A stretch of 64,000 nucleotides of DNA from Escherichia coli (GTDB lineage Bacteria > Pseudomonadota > Gammaproteobacteria > Enterobacterales > Enterobacteriaceae): assembly GCF_003018235.1 (NCBI RefSeq), contig NZ_CP027437.1; one strand, written 5' to 3'. How positions within the stretch are numbered: position 1 is the first letter of the stretch; each line of letters opens with the position of its first letter. The position numbers were made by a program, and so were the translations under genes. Positions 3,876 to 13,281 of the stretch are shown here, in pieces. The notes under the pieces are model-generated. The model worked only from the letters and a program-made list of their open reading frames with translations, was not told the origin of the DNA and searched no databases.

Positions 3876-4268
3876 ATGTTTTCTCACATTATGCTTGGAA
3901 CCAACAACCTGCCACGCGCCATTGCATTCTACGATCCGTTGATGGATATGCTGGGGTATCCCCGCGGCGGCAGGAAGAGGAGATCGCATGGTGGGGCGTT
4001 TTCAACGGTAATAACACTACGGCACTGGGTATCAGTAGGCCATTTGATAAACAGGTTGCCACGACCCGAAATGGAGTGATGGTCGCCCTGATTGCGCGTT
4101 CTGCCGAACACATCCAGCAAGTTTCATGTGCTAGCTTTAAATCACGGTGGCACTGACGAGGGAGCACCTGGCCAGCGTCCGCATTACGGCGAAGGGTTCT
4201 ACAGCGCTTACGTCAGAGACACCGATGGCAACAAGCTGGCTTACGTTTATTACACCGCACAATCCTGA
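3876..4268 (+). pseudogene. VOC/glyoxalase-family gene disrupted by frameshifts
   Basis: N-terminus MFSHIMLGTNNLPRAIAFYDPLMDMLGY in frame 1 (SD aaggaga upstream); the rest of a VOC-like protein (ALGISRPFDKQVATTRNGVMVAL... and GGTDEGAPGQRPHYGEGFYSAYVRDTDGNKLAYVYY) continues in the other two frames, implying at least two frameshifts. Confidence 0.5.
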
Positions 4269-4512
4269 GAACGATAAAGCGGGGGCCTCAGCGCCCCCAC
4301 CTGAAACTAAACCGATCCCGCAGATGTCAATGAGCGTTGAACGAGTTGATAAATGCCGAGATGTCTGACTGTTTTTACGCCAGAACTCCATGGTGTGACA
4401 ACCATACACATACTCCCTTCTTGACACCTTTAAACCATTTAACCGCATGCCTCTGTCTGCCCTGCAGGGACGGCTGATGCCTGTGTGTTGTCTGGCGGTA
4501 AGGAACAATACT

Positions 4513-4674
4513 ATGTACGCAAAATCCTTTATCGCTCTCGACGGGAATGGTCGTCTGACCGGTGCCCGTACTGCGCAGACCGCCCCTTACGATCGTTATA
4601 CCTGCCACCTCTGCGGTAGCGTGCTGCAATACCATCCTGAATACATCACCGAACGCCCGTGCTTTGAACAGTAA
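4513..4674 (+). CDS. Small hypothetical ORF (53 aa, MYAKSFIALDGNGRL...)
   Basis: ATG preceded by aagga-like SD; contains CHLCGS motif; function unknown, could be a remnant. Confidence 0.25.
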   Translation: MYAKSFIALDGNGRLTGARTAQTAPYDRYTCHLCGSVLQYHPEYITERPCFEQ

Positions 4675-5266
4675 CCAACACACTGACAGAGGGCGGCGAA
4701 AATGCTTTATGCAAATCTTGATGCAAAGGCAGCCAGACGAATTCGTAAGTTACGCTTTTACGTGGCAGATACTCAAAGCAGACTGGCATTGTAGCGACGA
4801 TTGCCACGGTGAACGCTATTGTATGGCATGTAGTACCTGAGACTTCAGCCGCCCAGTAGATATAGCATCATGAAAAAACTGAAATGCTTTCTTGCCAACA
4901 ACTCACTGAGCTAGTATGCCTCCACCGATGTAACAATTAGAGCAAGCGTCAAAGTGCGAAACTGCCCTCACGTAGCTGCAAGTTAACACCAGGAAATCCT
5001 GGTTCAAACACGACCAGCTCTATGTTAGCGGCAAGCAATCGTTGAACTAAACGCATATGCAGCCGGAGATGAAAGTTAGGAAAAAAGCAGAGGCTGATAA
5101 GAATTATGCACGTTGAGCTGGGATCGTAATACCCCACTTAAAATGTACAAGGGGAGTAGTCTAATGATGTTAAATACGAACCTTCAGTATTGTTCATTCA
5201 CCAATTTTCCCATATTCTCTCATCATTAATATTCTCTGCCGAATTTTATAGGGCTAACTCGCTGAA

Positions 5267-5470
5267 ATGAATGACAAAGCTTTAACCTTGAAAGATGTGG
5301 TGGCTTACTTAAAGTTGGCAGAAAAAACAGCGTATAGGTTGACTAGCGAAGGCAAATTGCCGGGATTTAAGGTTGAAGGCTCATGACGCTTCAAACGAGA
5401 GGATTTAGATATGTGGATTGAAGGTCAGAAGACTCAAAGCTACCCGAGTATCACAAAATCCAATCGTGGT
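5267..5470 (+). pseudogene. Excisionase/AlpA-like HTH DNA-binding protein interrupted by in-frame TGA
   Basis: Translation MNDKALTLKDVVAYLKLAEKTAYRLTSEGKLPGFKVEGS*RFKREDLDMWIEGQ; the stop at 5384-5386 sits where this family has the conserved Trp of the GSWRF motif. Confidence 0.5.
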
Positions 5471-5666
5471 TGATCAAGTGGATAAACATGAAAAGTCGGT
5501 AGCCCTCAAAGGCCACTTGCCACATGCAGTGAAGCAAGCCGTTGTGCAAGCTCTACTGAAAGAAGGTGATATCGCCCGAACGTTGCTCAAGGATCCACAA
5601 GTTATGGCAAGTTATGTTGAGCTGATTTTCGACATGATGAAGCAGAATAAAAATATGAATATCTAA
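5418..5666 (+). CDS. Small hypothetical ORF immediately upstream of the ATPase gene (non-ATG start in ORF track)
   Basis: ORF-track call only; start is TTG/GTG with no convincing SD; overlaps the 3-prime end of the HTH pseudogene. Confidence 0.2.
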   Translation: MKVRRLKATRVSQNPIVVDQVDKHEKSVALKGHLPHAVKQAVVQALLKEGDIARTLLKDPQVMASYVELIFDMMKQNKNMNI

Positions 5667-5708
5667 AAGATTTTGGGCTATCTATTACGTTTTAAAATGA
5701 GATAAATA

Positions 5709-8246
5709 ATGATAAATGACCATGAAGAACTAGAACTTGCTAAAGCTCAGGCAAAAGAAATATGGAAGATCCTTGATTATGTTCGAGGAGCATCACCTAT
5801 ATCTAATTATCGCTCATTAGCGTATTCAATCTTCTTCGTACGCTATCTTCAATCCAATACAGGTCAGCATTTTGAGGCAGAAAGGTTCGACTCTTTTAAT
5901 GTCATCGCCCAGTATTCCTACGATCTTGTAAACTATGCCGTTCAACTTGGATTGATTCATAGCGACGTATCTAAATTCTTAATTTATTATTTAGAAAACA
6001 CACTCCGTTCATTTGTCAATATTGATGAGTCTTTTGTTCGTTATGCAATTAGAGATGGTCTACTCAATAAAACCCCTGCAATAGCGTCGCTTTCTTTATC
6101 AGAACTGGATTTACTTTTTGCCGAGAATGAAGGTAAGTCAGGAGGTGAGTTTTATACCCCTAGAGACGTCAACTTATTGGTTAAAATATTAGGATTGAGT
6201 TATCAACCAAAGTCAATATGTGACCCATTTGCAGGTGCTGGAAACACAGCATTTCCTTTTGCCAATACTGGTATTGAAAAAGTTAGGATTGATACTCAAG
6301 AAATTAATAGAGATGCTTACTTTAAACTAGTAATAAGTAGAGTCATCAGGAAAATAGAAGGTCGAGACTATTTCGGCGATTCCCTATCACAACCATTATA
6401 TCAAGAAAATAAATATGATCTGATAGTTTCTTTCCCACCTTTTGGCATGAAAATTCCTAAAGCCACTCGAAATAATATTTACTATAAAACAAGTAATAAG
6501 TGGCTGGATATTACTGAAATCTTGCCAGAAAGTAGAAGTGATTGGTTTATAACATTATCAATGCTTCCAGCCCTTTCTGAGGGGGGTAAGATACTAGTAG
6601 GTATGTCACTTGGGGCTTTGACAAGAGCAGGCTCTGAGGCAAAGGTTCGTGAGTATTTAGTCTCTCGCGGAATTATCGAACAAGTAATTCTTTTACCTAA
6701 AAATATTTATTACTCTACGGCTATCTCAACTGTACTTCTTGTCCTCAACTCAGGAACAAGTAACATAAATAACAGAAGTATTAAATTTGTAGATGCTTCA
6801 CTGTTTTACGAGCCTGCCCGTGGTCGAAACACCCTCACAACAAAAAATATAAATGAGATCGTAGAGGCTTGTCATAAAGATGGCCGATTTAGTATTAGTT
6901 CATCTCATACCCAAATAGCAAACAGAGACTTTAATTTAGATCCGTCTCTTTATGTACGTAAAGATCTCAAAATCAGTGAGGTTTCTTTAAAAAATTTTAG
7001 AGGATACTCTGACTTTAAAGTTTCGATACATCCTTCTTTAAATGTATTGGTTGGTGAGAACGGCGTCGGGAAAACTTCGATATTAGAAGCATTAGCATGT
7101 GGCCTTGGTCCTTTCCTTACTGCTATGCCTGATGCTAAAGGAAAACTGATAAAAAAATCAGATATCCATATAAGTTCAAAAGGAATCGCAAATTATGCTC
7201 GAATATCGATTGAAACAACATCAAGTTTAAGTTGGGATCTTGTGGCAAAGGGGGTTGATGTTTCCGAGCCCCCTAAGATAGGAACATCAGCATTAACTAG
7301 CTACGCTACTCATCTTGTAGATAGTCAGTCTGAATATCCACTCATTGCTTATTATGGGACTAACCGTGCTCTTACTTCTACCAGTTCTAAAGTTGCAATA
7401 AATCCATTCGAGAAAGAAAATCGTGGGGAAGGTTATGACTTTGCTTTAGATGCTAAAGTTAACTACGGCATCTTAAAGAACTGGTTTTCAAAAATAGAGG
7501 TTGATGAGCTTCGAAAACGTGATGAACTAAAAGACCATAAATTCATTCATCCGGCTAAGAGACTTGTTTCAGAGGCTGTTTACCAGATTGTTGATCGAGC
7601 TACATGCTTGGAGTTCGACAAAAATAGTAACGATGTTATGGTTCATTGGAAAAATGAGCAGGGAGAGTGCGTAAAGCTTACATTGGAACAACTAAGTGAA
7701 GGGTATAGAAATATGGTATCCCTGACCATTGACCTAGTGAGGCGTGCTTATTTACTTAATCCTACCAAACCGAAACCGCTAACAGTTAATGGGATCGTTT
7801 TAATTGATGAAATTGAACTTCACTTGCACCCTAGATGGCAGCAAAAGATTTTAAATGATCTTACTAAGCTGTTTAAGAATATTCAGTTTATTGTCACGAC
7901 ACATAGTCCTCAAGTCTTAACAACAATCAAAGCCGATTGTATCCGTATTGTTTCCGTCAATGCTAACGAAGCAAAATTAGTGACAGGAACTACTACTTAC
8001 GGTTCTGAAAGCTCAAGAATGTTGGAAGATGTTTTAGGTGGTAACAATCGCGCCCAACATCTTGATATTGTTAAAAAACTAAACCGTTATACAGAGTTAG
8101 TAGAGGCCGACAAATGGGATACCGATGAGGCATTAGAACTCAAAAAAGAGTTATATAAATGGGGTGGTCAGACAGAAGACGAGCTTCAAAAATTAGAAAC
8201 TGATATTCGAATTCGCGAGTTCGAGCGTGGCAATGAAAAAGATTAA
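5709..8246 (+). CDS. Fusion protein: N-terminal gamma-class N6-adenine methyltransferase-like domain plus C-terminal ABC-type ATPase (Septu PtuA-like)
   Basis: MTase-like motifs in order X-I-IV: EFYTPRDV (about aa 147), DPFAGAGN (about aa 172), SFPPFG (about aa 240). ATPase motifs: Walker A GENGVGKTS (about aa 449), Walker B VLIDEIELHLHP (about aa 695), TTHSP (about aa 730). AT-rich coding sequence. Confidence 0.75.
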   Translation: MINDHEELELAKAQAKEIWKILDYVRGASPISNYRSLAYSIFFVRYLQSNTGQHFEAERFDSFNVIAQYSYDLVNYAVQLGLIHSDVSKFLIYYLENTLRSFVNIDESFVRYAIRDGLLNKTPAIASLSLSELDLLFAENEGKSGGEFYTPRDVNLLVKILGLSYQPKSICDPFAGAGNTAFPFANTGIEKVRIDTQEINRDAYFKLVISRVIRKIEGRDYFGDSLSQPLYQENKYDLIVSFPPFGMKIPKATRNNIYYKTSNKWLDITEILPESRSDWFITLSMLPALSEGGKILVGMSLGALTRAGSEAKVREYLVSRGIIEQVILLPKNIYYSTAISTVLLVLNSGTSNINNRSIKFVDASLFYEPARGRNTLTTKNINEIVEACHKDGRFSISSSHTQIANRDFNLDPSLYVRKDLKISEVSLKNFRGYSDFKVSIHPSLNVLVGENGVGKTSILEALACGLGPFLTAMPDAKGKLIKKSDIHISSKGIANYARISIETTSSLSWDLVAKGVDVSEPPKIGTSALTSYATHLVDSQSEYPLIAYYGTNRALTSTSSKVAINPFEKENRGEGYDFALDAKVNYGILKNWFSKIEVDELRKRDELKDHKFIHPAKRLVSEAVYQIVDRATCLEFDKNSNDVMVHWKNEQGECVKLTLEQLSEGYRNMVSLTIDLVRRAYLLNPTKPKPLTVNGIVLIDEIELHLHPRWQQKILNDLTKLFKNIQFIVTTHSPQVLTTIKADCIRIVSVNANEAKLVTGTTTYGSESSRMLEDVLGGNNRAQHLDIVKKLNRYTELVEADKWDTDEALELKKELYKWGGQTEDELQKLETDIRIREFERGNEKD

Positions 8247-9021
8247 TAAGCTAGATGAGCCAAATCGGCTTGGTGTGTTCAAGGCTACTCATCCTAATGC
8301 TTTGTGGGAGAGGGATAAAAACTCAATTGAAGAGGCTTTCCGTTGTTGCATTGCCAGATATCAAGAAACTCTACAACAATTACGTACGGACCAAGGTAAT
8401 TTATGTGCATATTGTGAACAGGATTTAATGTCTGGAACTAATGGGGCATTAGATGACTGCCGTATTGAGCATTTTCATCCGAAATCTAAACGTGAACAGG
8501 GAGAACCTAATTGGGCTTTGGAATGGAGCAATTTGTTAGTTGTTTGCTGTGGCGGAAATCAAAGTAAAGTTGTTAATCCTGGGCAAAGATTTGATGCTGA
8601 TCCCAAAAATTACTCTTGCGATGTACCAAAGAGTGACAAAATTTTAGATACCATTATATTAAATCCACTTAATTTACCTGAATTAAATATCTGGAAGTTT
8701 CATCGTTCTTCGGGGCAAATTTCCGTAAATGAAGATTCCTGTTTAGAATTTGGTATAAGTGTTGAAATGGCACACCAAACAATTAAAGAATTGAATTTAA
8801 ATTCCCCTCGATTAATTAGATTTCGAAAGGCTATTCTAAATAATCTCAACATTTTAATAACAGAAAGGCTGAAGAAGGGACAAACGGTAGAGCAAGCTGT
8901 TAGATTTATTGCCATATCACTCTTTAGAAAAAATGGAGCAGGTGATTGGCCCTCTTTTTTTAGTGCAACACGATATTATTTAGGTCAGCAGGCTGAGCTT
9001 GTTTTAGCCCAACCTATTTAA
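8227..9021 (+). CDS. HNH nuclease (Septu PtuB-like)
   Basis: Motif CAYCEQD...DDCRIEHFHPKS...WSNLLVVCCGGN; start (GTG 8227 or ATG 8233) overlaps the stop of the upstream ATPase gene, indicating an operon. Confidence 0.7.
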   Translation: MAMKKINKLDEPNRLGVFKATHPNALWERDKNSIEEAFRCCIARYQETLQQLRTDQGNLCAYCEQDLMSGTNGALDDCRIEHFHPKSKREQGEPNWALEWSNLLVVCCGGNQSKVVNPGQRFDADPKNYSCDVPKSDKILDTIILNPLNLPELNIWKFHRSSGQISVNEDSCLEFGISVEMAHQTIKELNLNSPRLIRFRKAILNNLNILITERLKKGQTVEQAVRFIAISLFRKNGAGDWPSFFSATRYYLGQQAELVLAQPI

Positions 9022-9081: not shown

Positions 9082-10515
9082 CTACAGGGGCGATGCTAGC
9101 TCAGAGAACCAAGCGTGAACTGATCTGTAAAATGTGCTGATTGACCAAAACTCACTGCATGCAGCAACTAACAGAATGACCACTAAGAGGATCACTACAG
9201 TAGAAGTCATTCTTTCCACACGGCAGTATGATCCCATCGCATCTTTTACAGGTTGTCTAGCCAGTTCCTGATAATCCAGCTCATCCAGAAATCCGTATAA
9301 TTTAGTTCTCCAGGTGGTTCTAACTCTTTCAAGTAATGAAATTGTTTGCCTATTAATATAGACAGACATTCCATAGGAAATAACTATATAAACCGCGATA
9401 GCACAAAAAACCAAAGCGTAAATATTTTGCAAACCAACTGATTTTACTGCATCCAGACTGTAGCGAATAACCAAGACACTAATTACAAGAGCCATATCTT
9501 TCCATAAGGAAGAGGACAAATCTCGGGATTGCTGAATGATCTTTTGTGTATCTTCAGCCAGCGTTTTCCGCAAATCACCCAAGGATTTCATAGTATCTTT
9601 ACCACCAGTCCTGATATGGGCCTTATACATTAACCGTGCAGACTCCAAAGCTGATGAGAGTCGAAGCATCACTCCCTCACAAAAGTTCAGGTCTGAAGGC
9701 CACTCTCTAGCCAGCTCGCTGGACAAAAACGTATGTTTCAGCTCAGTTTCATTCCCCTCTAGAAAAATCCACTTTGCCGCTTCCTGGATAATATCAAAAG
9801 CAGGTAACGCTGCCGTCTCATCGCCGAATGCTATTTTTCTGGGAGGCTTTCCCGCAAGCCCCACCATCATTTCGTCAGCAAAAAAAAGTTCATTTGCAAA
9901 ACATTTCAGCAACTCTCGGCATCCTAGCAATTTCCATATCTTGATTGCTTCATCAGTCTTCTCACTACAAGTTTCAAGTATCCAAGGGGCAATGGCATCT
10001 GGAGGAAGAAAAGTTGTTGAATAACATTTGATGATACTTTTTGTTACTGAAGGCTTAGTGATAGCTGTTGCATCACCAGCACTCACCGGCTGTATCTCCT
10101 TCCATGGATGCACATACCAACTTATTGTCTGAAAGCCTTCAGTAATAAACAGCCCATAAATATGTTTGTACCGACAGAGTTTGCTATCTTGAAGTAAAAA
10201 AGTGCGCCATCCTTCTAAGGTAAAAAGCCTCAGTATCCCCGGAATTTCATTATAAGTGATGGTAATGTAGTGCTTCTGCCCTGGGACCCCCTCTCTCGGA
10301 TGAATAACATCTCTGCTCTCATCGATAAAAACGATCTTGAGATCTTCCGCATGTACATCCACTATTTCTCCCCATAAATCAAGGGATTCACTATCCATTG
10401 TGGCGGAAATAAAAAGCTTATGGATAGACACCTGCTGGTCCTCTGTGATCACAAGGTCAGATAAATGTCGTGAGTGGCATATAGCCTTACCGATTTTTTC
10501 CAATATCGATATCAT
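9082..10515 (-). CDS. Hypothetical protein with C-terminal transmembrane helices (477 aa)
   Basis: Long ORF; C-terminal hydrophobic segments (IYALVFCAIAVYIVISYGMSVYI and STVVILLVVILLVAACSEFWSI); 29-nt overlap with the upstream gene; no recognisable catalytic motif. Confidence 0.55.
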   Translation of the reverse strand: MISILEKIGKAICHSRHLSDLVITEDQQVSIHKLFISATMDSESLDLWGEIVDVHAEDLKIVFIDESRDVIHPREGVPGQKHYITITYNEIPGILRLFTLEGWRTFLLQDSKLCRYKHIYGLFITEGFQTISWYVHPWKEIQPVSAGDATAITKPSVTKSIIKCYSTTFLPPDAIAPWILETCSEKTDEAIKIWKLLGCRELLKCFANELFFADEMMVGLAGKPPRKIAFGDETAALPAFDIIQEAAKWIFLEGNETELKHTFLSSELAREWPSDLNFCEGVMLRLSSALESARLMYKAHIRTGGKDTMKSLGDLRKTLAEDTQKIIQQSRDLSSSLWKDMALVISVLVIRYSLDAVKSVGLQNIYALVFCAIAVYIVISYGMSVYINRQTISLLERVRTTWRTKLYGFLDELDYQELARQPVKDAMGSYCRVERMTSTVVILLVVILLVAACSEFWSISTFYRSVHAWFSELASPL

Positions 10516-11744: not shown

Positions 11745-12998
11745 TTACATTATTAGGGCAAAATCAAACGGACTCACCCCCTTCTCCCGATTCGCATCCA
11801 GATAATTTGCCCACCACTGCAGCATCAACCTACGCTCCCCAAGATGTTCCGCCTTATGGATGTATGCCGCCCGCACAGAGCTACGCTCCTGATGGCTCAT
11901 CTGCCGCTCCACTGCATTCCTCGACCACAATCCTGATTCAATAAGTGAACTACAGGCCATCGTCCTGAAACCATGCCCACAGACTTCCGTTTTGGTGTCA
12001 TAGCCCATAACTCGCAAAGCCTTGTTCACCGTATTCTCACTCATCGGCTTATGCGGATCGTGATCGCCCACAAAAATCAGCTCTCGATTTCCATTCATGC
12101 TTTTGATCTTTTCCAAAATAGCTAAGGCCTGCCGCGATAAGGGTACAAGATGGGGAGTTCGCATCTTCGAACCACGCTGAGAATGTTTAACACCGTCCAA
12201 CGGTTCACGCTCACCGGGGATCGTCCACATGGCCGTTTCAAAATCCACTTCTGACCAACGGGCAAAGCGCAGTTCGCTTGAACGGATGAAAACTAACAAA
12301 GTGAGTTCGACAGCCAGTCGAGTTAACGGCCTGCCGGAGTAATGATCAATGCGGTGAAGTAATTCAGGTATGCGGTTAAGCTCCAGAGCCGCACGATGCT
12401 GTCTTTTAGCAGTAGCAACCGCACCGGTAATCTCTTGCGCGGGGTTGTAGTCGATTAAGCCGCTCTGAACGGCAAAGCGCATAATCGCGGTAGTTCGCTG
12501 CTGTAAACGGGCGGCGACTTCAAGACGTCCGGATGACTCCACCGCTTTAATGGGTACAAGAAGATCCCGAGTCTTAAGCTCTGCAATGTTCCGCTTACCG
12601 ATAGCAGCAAAGAGATTATCTTCTAGGCTTTTCAATACACGAGCACTATGCGATGCAGACCACTTCTGATTACTGGCATGCCAGTCTCTGACGACCACTT
12701 CAAACGTTATCGCCTCTTGCTCCTGTTCTACCTTAACCGCTTTCTTGTTTTCACTGGGATCGACGCCGTTCGCTAAAAGCTTACGCGCTTCGTCTCGCCG
12801 CGATCGAGCATCAGCTAACGAAACTTCAGGATACTTCCCTAGCGCCAGCATCTTCTCTTTACCACCGAAACGATAACGAAGCCGCCAGTATTTGGAGCCG
12901 TTAGGGTGAACCAGCAAAACCATGCCTTCACCATCAGTAAGTTTATAGGCTTTTGCTTCAGGCTTTGCCGAACGAACCTTCACATCACTCAGAGCCAT
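11745..12998 (-). CDS. P4-type tyrosine integrase (IntB-like), apparently intact
   Basis: Translation MALSDVKVRSAKPEAKAYKLTDGEGMVLLVHPNGSKYWRLRYRFGGKEK... matches P4/CP4-like integrases and ends with a tyrosine-recombinase C-terminus; adjacent to tRNA-Leu 3-prime end. Confidence 0.85.
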   Translation of the reverse strand: MALSDVKVRSAKPEAKAYKLTDGEGMVLLVHPNGSKYWRLRYRFGGKEKMLALGKYPEVSLADARSRRDEARKLLANGVDPSENKKAVKVEQEQEAITFEVVVRDWHASNQKWSASHSARVLKSLEDNLFAAIGKRNIAELKTRDLLVPIKAVESSGRLEVAARLQQRTTAIMRFAVQSGLIDYNPAQEITGAVATAKRQHRAALELNRIPELLHRIDHYSGRPLTRLAVELTLLVFIRSSELRFARWSEVDFETAMWTIPGEREPLDGVKHSQRGSKMRTPHLVPLSRQALAILEKIKSMNGNRELIFVGDHDPHKPMSENTVNKALRVMGYDTKTEVCGHGFRTMACSSLIESGLWSRNAVERQMSHQERSSVRAAYIHKAEHLGERRLMLQWWANYLDANREKGVSPFDFALIM

Positions 12999-13196
12999 GA
13001 TGAATATCCTTTCAAGGGTTCTGTGTGGGTACAAACATTATCGAACCGGGATATACCCGCAGTTGTACCCGCATCAGTAAGTTGATGTAGATTGAATCAG
13101 GTTGACTTAGGTTGAGTGAAAAAGCGAGGAAAGCCTTGCGGATACTGGATTTCAGGCATAAAAAAAGACCTCAGTTGAGGTCTATTTACATACTTA

Positions 13197-13281
13197 TGGT
13201 GCCGAAGGCCGGACTCGAACCGGCACGTATTTCTACGGTTGATTTTGAATCAACTGCGTCTACCGATTTCGCCACTTCGGC
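13197..13281 (-). tRNA. leuX: tRNA-Leu (CAA)
   Basis: Reverse complement reads GCCGAAGTGGCGAAATCGGTAGACGCAGTTGATTCAAAATCAACCGTAGAAATACGTGCCGGTTCGAGTCCGGCCTTCGGCACCA, with cloverleaf features and a long variable arm. Confidence 0.9.

What the first reader, a model, noticed from the sequence alone, without database searches (positions are those of the whole stretch)
5267..5470. Excisionase-like HTH gene with a TGA exactly at the conserved Trp codon
The ORF encodes a typical excisionase/AlpA-type winged-helix protein, but the codon where this family has GSWRF reads TGA instead of TGG. A single G-to-A change would explain it. Either this is a recent inactivating mutation in a regulator of the island, or the stop is read through. 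Its position just upstream of the Septu-like operon makes it a plausible former regulator of that operon or of excision.
Basis: seen in the sequence. Interest (0 to 1): 0.4.

Follow-up and report, generated by a model that had tools for sequence, protein, structure and literature searches.

The report
Dead regulator gene of a truncated defence operon
The small DNA-binding gene really does carry a stop codon where its family always has tryptophan, but it is an ordinary decayed gene: the leader regulator of a restriction-type phage-defence operon that first lost its restriction genes by a 6.4-kb deletion and then lost the regulator itself.

Summary
Window 5267-5473 (+) is an HTH_17 gene with TGA (5384-5386) at the invariant Trp of GSWRF. 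It is not a sequencing error: eight independent assemblies have a stop at this codon, four TGA and four TAA.

The gene is not an excisionase or AlpA. Its close intact relatives (75-88% identical, all TGG) belong to the MAD1 family of small HTH proteins. These are the first gene of restriction-type defence operons: in 67 species the next gene is usually HsdM, Mrr, a ResIII/SNF2 helicase, BrxA or MmeI.

The nearest relatives head the operon HTH-hsdM-hsdS-hsdR-[MTase-like::PtuA]-PtuB. The window lineage carries a 6407-bp deletion (junction 5441/5442) that removed hsdM, hsdS and most of hsdR. That deletion is why the HTH now sits next to the Septu-like genes.

On this branch the HTH gene also gained six amino-acid replacements and no synonymous change (dN/dS about 2, against about 0.1 in relatives).

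I found no recoding signal, and no stop at this codon in 100,044 species genomes (89 have TGG).

Verdict: an ordinary pseudogene in a decaying defence cassette. Functional UGA readthrough is unlikely (about 4%). Low interest.

The parts
5170..5266 (+). Conserved upstream leader/promoter region of the HTH-led operon. No promoter or operator was demonstrated.
   Evidence: a block of about 95 nt before the ATG is conserved from E. coli to Pantoea (L006) and L007, although the sequence further upstream differs. A possible -35 TTGTTC / 17 nt / -10 TATTCT was read by eye in the relatives' consensus, but the window's own spacer carries a substitution and the consensus scan did not report a site there.
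5267..5386 (+). Truncated MAD1-type HTH_17 gene: 39 codons plus TGA. RefSeq annotates it as the 39-aa 'helix-turn-helix transcriptional regulator' WP_097336610.1.
   Evidence: On this branch the replacements are Q4K, I5A, E10D, A12V and G37E.
5384..5386 (+). Nonsense codon TGA (next base C) at the invariant Trp40 of GSWRF. The same codon is TAA in one E. coli clade and TGG in all intact relatives.
5387..5440 (+). Untranslated remainder of the HTH gene (codons 41-58, RFKREDLDMWIEGQKTQS). It would encode the second wing strand and the C-terminal helix.
   Evidence: The AlphaFold model gives H8-27, E34-36, E39-41 and H44-56.
5441..5442 (.). Junction of a 6407-bp deletion with 2-bp TA microhomology. 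The deletion removed the HTH gene's own TAG stop, hsdM, hsdS and all but the 3' end of hsdR.
   Evidence: window 5100-5442 matches L010 38-380, and window 5441-5760 matches L010 6786-7105.
5443..5473 (+). Deletion-scar tail of the HTH reading frame (codon 59, straddling the junction, to 68: YPSITKSNRG, then TGA). It is hsdR sequence read out of frame.
   Evidence: pLDDT is below 50 for residues 60-68. Family members end at about 56-60 aa.
5442..5666 (+). In-frame 3' remnant of hsdR (last 74 codons plus stop). Part of it (5478-5666) is annotated in RefSeq as the 62-aa hypothetical protein WP_244578218.1.
   Evidence: it aligns with the C-terminus of the 1071-aa HsdR of L010. Searches give the annotation. 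One search gives a weak hit to the C-terminal end of a PADLOC model.
5709..8246 (+). Intact 845-aa fusion of an HsdM-like N6_Mtase domain (motif IV FPPF instead of NPPF) with a PtuA ATPase.
   Evidence: PtuA E 4.7e-106. N6_Mtase E 4e-42; dN/dS 0.14 against L010; motifs; the gene is intact in all eight stop-bearing loci.
8233..9021 (+). Intact PtuB HNH endonuclease (262 aa).
   Evidence: PtuB E 1.9e-100. TIGR02646 scores 83.6, above its cutoff of 52; dN 0 and dS 0.057 against L010.
11745..13281 (-). Context: P4-type tyrosine integrase (11745-12998) and tRNA-Leu(CAA) leuX (13197-13281). These mark the integrated island that carries the cassette.
   Evidence: no second copy of the tRNA 3' end in the window.

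Best explanation
The ORF is a pseudogene. It is the inactivated leader gene of a horizontally acquired restriction-type defence operon in an island at leuX in E. coli.

In intact relatives a 58-aa MAD1-type winged-helix protein is the first gene of HTH-hsdM-hsdS-hsdR-[MTase-like::PtuA]-PtuB. By its position and fold I infer that it binds DNA and regulates transcription of that operon. That role is inferred, not shown.

In the window lineage two events are shown by sequence:
1. A 6407-bp deletion with 2-bp microhomology removed the type I restriction-modification genes. It fused the end of the HTH gene to the tail of hsdR.
2. TGG(Trp40) then changed to TGA. One clade later changed TGA to TAA.

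The stop removes the second strand of the wing and the C-terminal helix, so the 39-aa product is very unlikely to fold or bind DNA (inferred from the model). The gene then evolved without constraint: six amino-acid replacements and no synonymous change. PtuA and PtuB stayed intact.

Whether the regulator was lost neutrally because its main cargo was gone, or was selected against, is not resolved.
For:: the stop lies inside a continuous HTH_17 match.

homologues at 75-88% identity all have GSWRF, and W40 is invariant in 27 of 27.

intact relatives P0003 and P0005 head the six-gene operon in loci L006-L011.

the deletion junction was mapped to the base. An hsdR C-terminal remnant is retained and the HTH gene's own stop codon is destroyed.

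L005 has the deletion but TGG, so the deletion most likely came first.

eight independent assemblies carry the stop, four TGA and four TAA. The TAA forms are one clade.

- The window branch has 7 replaced codons (8 nt) and 0 synonymous changes. The L005 branch has 2 and 5 (Fisher p 0.007-0.04).
- dN/dS between window and L010 is 2.1 for the HTH gene, 0.14 for MTase::PtuA and 0 for PtuB.
- dN/dS is 0-0.14 among intact HTH copies.

- The MAD1 model scores 81.9-88.1 in intact relatives, 76.9 in the window copy with Trp restored, and 46.8 as encoded.
- The 'excise' domain model falls from about 54 to 36.9 to 20.4.

in the model W40 lies in strand 2 of the wing, and helix 44-56 follows the stop.

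0 genomes have TGA or TAA at this motif, against 89 with TGG, among 100,044 species genomes.

the gene after the HTH is HsdM in 25 of 67 genomes, Mrr in 13-14, ResIII/SNF2/HsdR in 13, BrxA in 3 and MmeI in 3.

The MADS preprint (10.1101/2023.03.30.534895) reports that deleting mad1 had limited effect on defence. It treats MAD1 as an accessory protein, grouped with those homologous to restriction-modification components and 'widespread regulators'.
Against: No expression or protein data exist for this gene.

UGA followed by C is, from my own recollection of Poole et al. 1995, the weakest termination signal in E. coli.

Trp-tRNA is the known near-cognate reader of UGA, at about 2-4% in a K-12 reporter (PMC10570021). 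So some full-length protein carrying the family's normal Trp at codon 40 could be made in the TGA strains.

The 18 codons after the stop have only one replacement (E48D), so the reading frame is still open.

The regulatory role of MAD1-type proteins has not been shown experimentally for any member that I could find.

The order 'deletion, then stop' rests on a single TGG contig (L005). Its synonymous divergence from the window is oddly high.
Confidence: 0.85

Rival explanations
1. Functional leaky readthrough. Trp-tRNA(CCA) decodes the UGA-C stop at a few per cent and inserts the family's normal Trp at that position. The cell would then keep a low, condition-dependent dose of the regulator.
For: The stop is TGA followed by C. 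UGA readthrough by Trp-tRNA runs at about 2% at 37 C and 4% at 25 C in an E. coli K-12 reporter (PMC10570021). The frame after the stop is open and nearly unchanged.
Against: Half of the loci read have TAA at this codon, which Trp-tRNA does not read.

No relative has a stop here: 0 against 89 species genomes.

The downstream RNA is not structured (z -0.41) and there is no Rfam or SECIS match.

The gene carries replacements at near-invariant positions I5 and G37. It has dN/dS of about 2, and its model scores fall even with Trp restored.

The readthrough figures come from K-12, whose RF2 variant terminates poorly at UGA. With the RF2 variant of E. coli B, the extended products of nudL and pheL were not seen (PMC5373646).
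Confidence: 0.04
2. Selected loss. After the restriction genes were deleted, the orphaned regulator was harmful, for instance by repressing or mis-timing PtuAB. Knock-outs were therefore favoured. The later TGA-to-TAA change tightened a leaky stop.
For: There are two hits in one codon. The TAA clade differs from the window at only 6 of 4101 sites, and one of them is the middle base of this codon. That is roughly a 0.4% chance for a pre-specified codon.

All 8 nucleotide changes in the gene on this branch are non-synonymous.

The promoter-plus-HTH segment is 5-6% diverged from L010, against 1-2.6% for the hsdR remnant and PtuAB.

PtuA and PtuB are intact in all eight loci.
Against: Every count is small. 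Eight of 8 non-synonymous changes is compatible with neutrality (about 0.76^8 = 0.11). The divergence contrast is not significant.

The TAA change is a single event. G-to-A transitions are the commonest mutation.

Within the stop-bearing clade, PtuA and PtuB show N:S of 6:4 and 3:2, so there is no sign of strong selection on the cargo.
Confidence: 0.15
3. The gene is the excisionase or AlpA-like regulator of the leuX island. Its loss locks the island in place.
For: The restored protein passes the generic 'excisionase family DNA-binding' domain model TIGR01764 (36.9 bits, cutoff 28.8). The island has a P4-type integrase at 11745-12998.
Against: The Pfam AlpA model fails at 12 bits against a cutoff of 21.

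Orthologues are always the first gene of restriction-type operons. They travel with those operons into unrelated contexts.

Related islands carry a separate AlpA gene next to a YagK/YfjJ gene: L007 8982-9248 and L013 6548-6754.

The gene lies 6.3 kb from the integrase and on the other strand. No att repeat of leuX is present in the window.
Confidence: 0.02
4. Assembly or sequencing error at position 5386.
For: None beyond its prior plausibility for a single-base change.
Against: The same stop is present in the complete genomes NZ_CP049204 and NZ_CP028192 and in CP082141. It is also present in several draft assemblies and in two contigs assembled independently from public reads.
Confidence: 0.01

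Closest known systems
MAD1, the small HTH protein encoded by the first gene of the methylation-associated defence system MADS (NCBIfam NF047737; PADLOC mad1; preprint 10.1101/2023.03.30.534895)
   Same: The fold and sequence family are the same. Intact orthologues score 81.9-88.1 bits against a cutoff of 80, and the PADLOC mad1 model gives E 1e-7. The position is also the same: first gene of a methylation-based defence operon. In MADS, deleting mad1 had little effect on defence, which fits a dispensable regulator that can be lost.
   Different: The operon here is not MADS. There are no MAD6-8 equivalents. The partners are type I hsdMSR plus MTase-like::PtuA and PtuB. The window copy is truncated at codon 40, and with Trp restored it still falls just below the family cutoff at 76.9 bits.
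Controller (C) proteins of restriction-modification systems
   Same: Both are small DNA-binding proteins encoded at the head of a restriction operon and presumed to time or limit its expression. This is an analogy drawn from general knowledge and gene position.
   Different: C proteins have an Xre/HTH_3 fold, whereas this protein has the HTH_17 (MerR/excisionase-like) winged helix. No C-box-like operator was identified here, and regulation by this family has not been tested.
Excisionase-family and BldC/RacA-type small MerR-like winged-helix DNA binders (TIGR01764; PDB 6ama, 5i44)
   Same: The domain type matches: TIGR01764 is passed by intact relatives at about 54 bits. The best, though weak, sequence and fold matches are to BldC and RacA.
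   Different: Those matches are not significant (E 0.2-0.9). There is no link to an integrase or an att site. Gene context points to regulation of defence operons rather than recombination directionality.
Septu (PtuA/PtuB), including the retron Ec78/Eco7 effector pair
   Same: The two genes downstream are strong PtuA and PtuB matches.
   Different: PtuA carries an N-terminal HsdM-like domain with FPPF in place of the catalytic NPPF. In relatives the pair is the tail of a type I restriction operon. The NCBIfam PtuA and PtuB equivalog cutoffs are not reached (329 against 500, and 127 against 150).
Natural UGA readthrough by Trp-tRNA in E. coli (for example nudL, and phage Q-beta A1 protein from general knowledge)
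   Same: A UGA codon that Trp-tRNA can misread.
   Different: The stop is not conserved, there is no stimulatory RNA element, and a TAA allele exists in the same lineage.

Membership tests
MAD1 (NCBIfam NF047737 antiphage_MADS1, equivalog) | Whole-protein score at or above the curated cutoff of 80 bits | tested here: not met
   As encoded (39 aa) the score is 46.8 bits. With Trp restored it is 76.9 bits. Intact orthologues P0002, P0003, P0005 and P0012 score 81.9-88.1, so the ancestor was a member.
MAD1 (NCBIfam NF047737 antiphage_MADS1, equivalog) | Complete HTH_17 winged helix with the invariant GSWRF wing and the C-terminal helix | tested here: not met
   The stop replaces W40, which is invariant in 27 of 27 homologues. 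Strand 2 and helix 44-56 lie after it.
MAD1 (NCBIfam NF047737 antiphage_MADS1, equivalog) | First gene of a MADS operon, with mad6-mad8 mandatory in the authors' model | tested here: not met
   The downstream genes are an hsdR remnant, MTase-like::PtuA and PtuB. MAD3 gives only a weak partial hit, 40 bits against a cutoff of 420. Relatives have hsdMSR plus PtuAB.
Excisionase (Xis) / recombination directionality factor | Excisionase-family DNA-binding domain (TIGR01764, cutoff 28.8 bits) | tested here: inconclusive
   The score is 20.4 bits as encoded (fails) and 36.9 bits with Trp restored (passes). This model describes a domain only and does not imply excisionase function.
Excisionase (Xis) / recombination directionality factor | Genetic linkage to an integrase and an att pair of the element it excises | tested here: not met
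   The gene is 6.3 kb from the integrase and on the opposite strand. No second copy of the leuX 3' end was found. In 67 species the neighbour is a restriction, modification or BREX gene in about 58 cases.
AlpA (Pfam PF05930) | Score above the gathering threshold of 21 bits | tested here: not met
   The score is 12 bits, E 0.2, and only for the truncated form.
Programmed stop-codon readthrough or recoding site | The stop codon is conserved at the same position in relatives | tested here: not met
   There are 0 matches with TGA or TAA against 89 with TGG for the same degenerate motif in 100,044 species genomes. TAG was not scanned.
Programmed stop-codon readthrough or recoding site | A stimulatory RNA element or SECIS downstream of the stop | tested here: not met
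   Folding of 5378-5450 gives -14.7 kcal/mol, z -0.41. There is no Rfam match in 4900-5800 at E up to 1.
Programmed stop-codon readthrough or recoding site | A measurable full-length product | not testable with these tools
   This needs a reporter fusion, a western blot or mass spectrometry.
Septu (PtuA + PtuB) - neighbouring genes | An ATPase of the PtuA type followed by an HNH nuclease of the PtuB type | tested here: met
   PADLOC PtuA gives E 4.7e-106 over residues 420-843, and PtuB gives E 1.9e-100. TIGR02646 scores 83.6, above its cutoff of 52.15. The NCBIfam Ec78 equivalog cutoffs are not reached.

The most novel reading that the evidence does not exclude
In the strains that keep TGA-C, Trp-tRNA misreading would rebuild a full-length protein with the family's normal Trp at codon 40, at a few per cent. 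UGA readthrough in E. coli varies with temperature and cAMP. The stop would then act as a translational dimmer, leaving a trace of regulator for the surviving PtuAB module. The TAA clade would be the fully switched-off state.

My evidence does not exclude this for the TGA strains, but nothing positive supports it.
Probability: 0.04. Interest if true: 0.5.

Novelty: new member of a known kind. Interest (0 to 1): 0.15.

Why it matters
The finding matters little in itself. A nonsense mutation in a dispensable regulator inside a decaying island is routine genome erosion.

It has three practical uses.
- **Annotation.** RefSeq lists a 39-aa 'HTH transcriptional regulator' and a 62-aa 'hypothetical protein' here. 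These are really a truncated MAD1-type gene and the tail of a deleted hsdR.
- **A database artefact.** The apparently intact 72-aa database entry P0001 was produced by translating TGA as Trp.
- **A dated series of decay steps.** The locus shows full operon, then restriction genes deleted, then regulator TGA, then TAA. It also exposes a restriction-linked Septu variant whose PtuA carries a probably inactive methylase-like domain.

If the surviving PtuAB pair still defends against phage without its restriction partner and its regulator, that would show how modular such composite operons are.

Tried and rejected
- **Sequencing error.** Rejected, because many independent assemblies share the stop.
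- **'The family ends here'.** Rejected, because all homologues continue for about 18 more residues with an invariant Trp.
- **The 'intact' database protein P0001.** It is 72 aa and 100% identical. Its contigs L003 and L004 carry TGA at both positions and do not translate to it under code 11. It is a gene-calling artefact, apparently from a TGA=Trp code.
- **AlpA or excisionase.** Rejected on score and gene context.
- **Small ORF 5478-5666 as a coupled second gene.** Rejected, because it is the C-terminus of HsdR.
- **Replacements imported by recombination from a divergent allele.** Unlikely, since no synonymous change accompanies them.
- **Selenocysteine or a structured recoding signal.** No SECIS or Rfam hit, and the fold is unremarkable.
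- **Promoter and operator.** The consensus scan found nothing convincing upstream of the ATG. Only a conserved block is visible.
- **Solved-structure relatives.** Only weak BldC and RacA matches turned up.
- **Literature on MTase-PtuA fusions or on regulation by MAD1-type proteins.** Nothing specific was found.
- **Intact operon in E. coli.** No complete E. coli genome holds the HTH-hsdM arrangement.

Full report
**1. The observation**

Window 5267-5473 (+) reads MNDKALTLKDVVAYLKLAEKTAYRLTSEGKLPGFKVEGS*RFKREDLDMWIEGQKTQSYPSITKSNRG*. The first stop is TGA at 5384-5386 and is followed by C.

Pfam HTH_17 scores 31.8 bits on the 39 residues before the stop. It scores 58.1 bits (E 1.1e-15, nearly the full profile) when the stop is read as Trp. 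The homology therefore runs straight through the stop.

A database search with the restored sequence returned 1796 homologues. The best are 75-88% identical and all show GSWRF. In an alignment of 27 of them Trp40 is invariant.

**2. Not an error, and not an intact gene elsewhere in E. coli**

- Only 2 of 5426 complete E. coli genomes hold this gene. Both have a stop at codon 40, and RefSeq annotates a 39-aa 'helix-turn-helix transcriptional regulator'.
- The exact 39-aa product is indexed in 92 blocks of public assemblies.
- Of eight loci read, four have TGA, including one identical to the window over 4.1 kb. The other four have TAA. The TAA loci form one clade that shares five other SNPs.
- A database protein that looked like an intact 72-aa copy (P0001) is an artefact. 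Its contigs carry TGA at both in-frame stops, and the gene caller must have read TGA as Trp.
- One contig (L005, about 93% identical) has a true TGG.

**3. What the gene is**

The restored protein is closest to MAD1, the small HTH protein encoded at the head of the methylation-associated defence system (MADS).

| Model | Intact relatives | Window, Trp restored | Window, as encoded |
|---|---|---|---|
| NCBIfam MAD1 (cutoff 80 bits) | 81.9-88.1 | 76.9 | 46.8 |
| TIGR01764 'excise' domain (cutoff 28.8 bits) | about 54 | 36.9 | 20.4 |

PADLOC mad1 matches at E 1e-7. Pfam AlpA fails.

An AlphaFold model (pLDDT 82) shows helices over residues 8-27, a two-stranded wing (34-36 and 39-41, with Trp40 in the second strand) and a C-terminal helix (44-56). 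The stop therefore removes half the wing and the last helix. Solved-structure matches (BldC, RacA) are weak.

**4. Gene context of intact relatives**

The two closest intact proteins are P0003 (88%) and P0005 from Pantoea agglomerans (83%). Both are the first gene of the same operon: HTH (58 aa), hsdM (660), hsdS (434-440), hsdR (1071), an 845-aa N6_Mtase::PtuA fusion, and PtuB (262).

More distant members lead other restriction-type operons:
- SNF2 helicase, N6_N4 methylase and ResIII in Vibrio.
- hsdM-GmrSD-hsdM-hsdS-hsdR in Aliivibrio.
- hsdMSR followed by a Piwi (Argonaute-family) gene in Nitrosomonas.

A degenerate DNA motif for GKLPGFKxxGSWRFKR found 89 loci among 100,044 species-representative genomes, mostly marine Gammaproteobacteria. 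For 67 of them I scanned the next gene. It was HsdM in 25, Mrr in 13-14, ResIII/SNF2/HsdR in 13, BrxA in 3 and MmeI in 3.

The family is therefore a portable leader gene of restriction-type defence operons and not an excisionase. That it regulates transcription is an inference from fold and position. The MADS authors report that deleting mad1 had limited effect on defence, and they group MAD1 with accessory proteins homologous to restriction-modification components and 'widespread regulators' (10.1101/2023.03.30.534895).

**5. Why the gene sits next to the Septu-like genes here**

Window 5100-5442 aligns to L010 38-380. Window 5441-5760 aligns to L010 6786-7105. Base-level comparison shows a 6407-bp deletion with a 2-bp TA microhomology (AGCTA|CCCGAG). 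The deletion:
- removed the G of the HTH gene's own TAG stop;
- removed all of hsdM and hsdS;
- removed hsdR except its last 74 codons.

Two features of the window follow from this. The tail YPSITKSNRG of the HTH frame is hsdR sequence read out of frame, and it is disordered in the model. The 'hypothetical protein' at 5478-5666 is the in-frame C-terminus of HsdR.

This is a deletion and not an insertion in the relatives, because a gene fragment remains. L005 has the same junction but TGG, so the deletion most probably preceded the stop.

**6. Signs of decay**

On the window branch the HTH gene has Q4K, I5A (two bases), E10D, A12V, G37E, W40stop and E48D, with no synonymous change. The L005 branch has 2 replacements and 5 synonymous changes (Fisher p 0.007-0.04).

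| Comparison | dN/dS |
|---|---|
| HTH gene, window vs L010 | 2.1 |
| HTH gene, among intact copies | 0-0.14 |
| MTase::PtuA, window vs L010 | 0.14 |
| PtuB, window vs L010 | 0 (dN 0) |

I5 and G37 are conserved in at least 90% of the family. Constraint on the regulator has been lifted, whereas PtuA and PtuB remain full length in all eight stop-bearing loci.

The surrounding region is also eroding:
- The VOC and zinc-ribbon genes upstream are frameshifted.
- An IS3-family element lies upstream in the TAA clade.
- The 477-aa gene downstream varies in length between strains.
- No second copy of the leuX 3' end is present in the window.

**7. Readthrough**

Three points speak for it. UGA followed by C is a weak stop (my recollection of Poole et al. 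1995). Trp-tRNA misreads UGA at about 2-4% in a K-12 reporter (PMC10570021). That misreading would insert Trp, the family's normal residue at this position.

The points against are stronger:
- Half of the loci read have TAA.
- No other species has TGA or TAA at this site, 0 against 89.
- There is no downstream structure or Rfam match.
- The gene is degraded at other conserved positions.
- K-12 overstates UGA readthrough, because its RF2 variant is weak (PMC5373646).

I put functional readthrough at about 4%.

**8. Open points**

- The TGA-to-TAA change is one of only 6 differences in 4.1 kb. That is about a 0.4% chance for a pre-specified codon. It could mean selection to tighten a leaky stop, or selection against the regulator. 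It is a single event, and I give selected loss about 15%.
- L005 shares the deletion junction, yet at synonymous sites it is further from the window than the undeleted L010 is. This is unexplained and may reflect recombination.

**9. Verdict**

The feature is an ordinary pseudogene: the dead leader regulator of a defence operon that had already lost its restriction-modification core. Interest is low.

The more interesting by-product is the composite operon itself. PtuA carries an HsdM-like domain with FPPF in place of the catalytic NPPF, and this is conserved in relatives.

Noticed in passing
window 5709-8246 (and L006, L009-L011): The PtuA ATPase is fused to an N-terminal HsdM-like N6_Mtase domain. 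Its motif IV reads FPPF instead of the catalytic NPPF, while the SAM-binding motif DPFAGAG is kept. This is conserved in relatives. In relatives the fusion and PtuB always follow a complete type I hsdMSR. No PADLOC model spans both halves. It may be a restriction-coupled Septu variant with an inactive methylase-like sensor or docking domain.
   Followed up: partly
window 5478-5666: RefSeq annotates a 62-aa 'hypothetical protein' (WP_244578218.1) here. It is the in-frame C-terminal remnant of a deleted 1071-aa HsdR and not a gene of its own.
   Followed up: yes
L003 619-837, L004 523-741 (protein P0001): The protein database holds a 72-aa 'intact' version that does not translate from its own contigs under code 11. 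Both in-frame TGA codons were read as Trp, so the entry is a gene-calling artefact on short Logan contigs that can mislead homology checks.
   Followed up: yes
L002/L015, L016, L018, L019 at the position of window 5385: One E. coli clade has TAA instead of TGA at the same codon. This second hit is one of only 6 differences from the window in 4.1 kb. The same clade has an IS3-family element (ISEc31) about 670 bp upstream of the gene.
   Followed up: partly
L005 (Logan SRR23468754) compared with window 5060-5760: This is the only deletion-bearing allele with an intact TGG. It shares the exact junction, yet at synonymous sites it is more diverged from the window (dS 0.20) than the undeleted L010 is (dS 0.03). 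This hints at recombination around the junction.
   Followed up: no
window 3876-4268 and 4447-4840: A VOC-family gene and a putative zinc-ribbon gene just upstream are split by frameshifts. They are annotated as pseudogenes in the near-identical PapM-32-1 genome, so the whole stretch between nanS and the defence cassette is eroding.
   Followed up: no
window 9082-10515 (-): This 477-aa gene, which has no family match, lies between PtuB and a 37-kDa nucleoid-associated-protein homologue. Its length varies among otherwise near-identical strains: 477, 449 or 334 aa, or split into 169 + 215 aa.
   Followed up: no
L014 (CP082141.1): The same stop-bearing cassette sits in a different chromosomal context. 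There is no adjacent integrase, and it lies next to a reverse-transcriptase-TIR gene. The island has been rearranged or moved in that genome.
   Followed up: no
window 24001-25000 and 27001-29000: These are two further low-GC patches (0.34-0.36, against about 0.52 for the flanks). They are probably other horizontally acquired segments.
   Followed up: no
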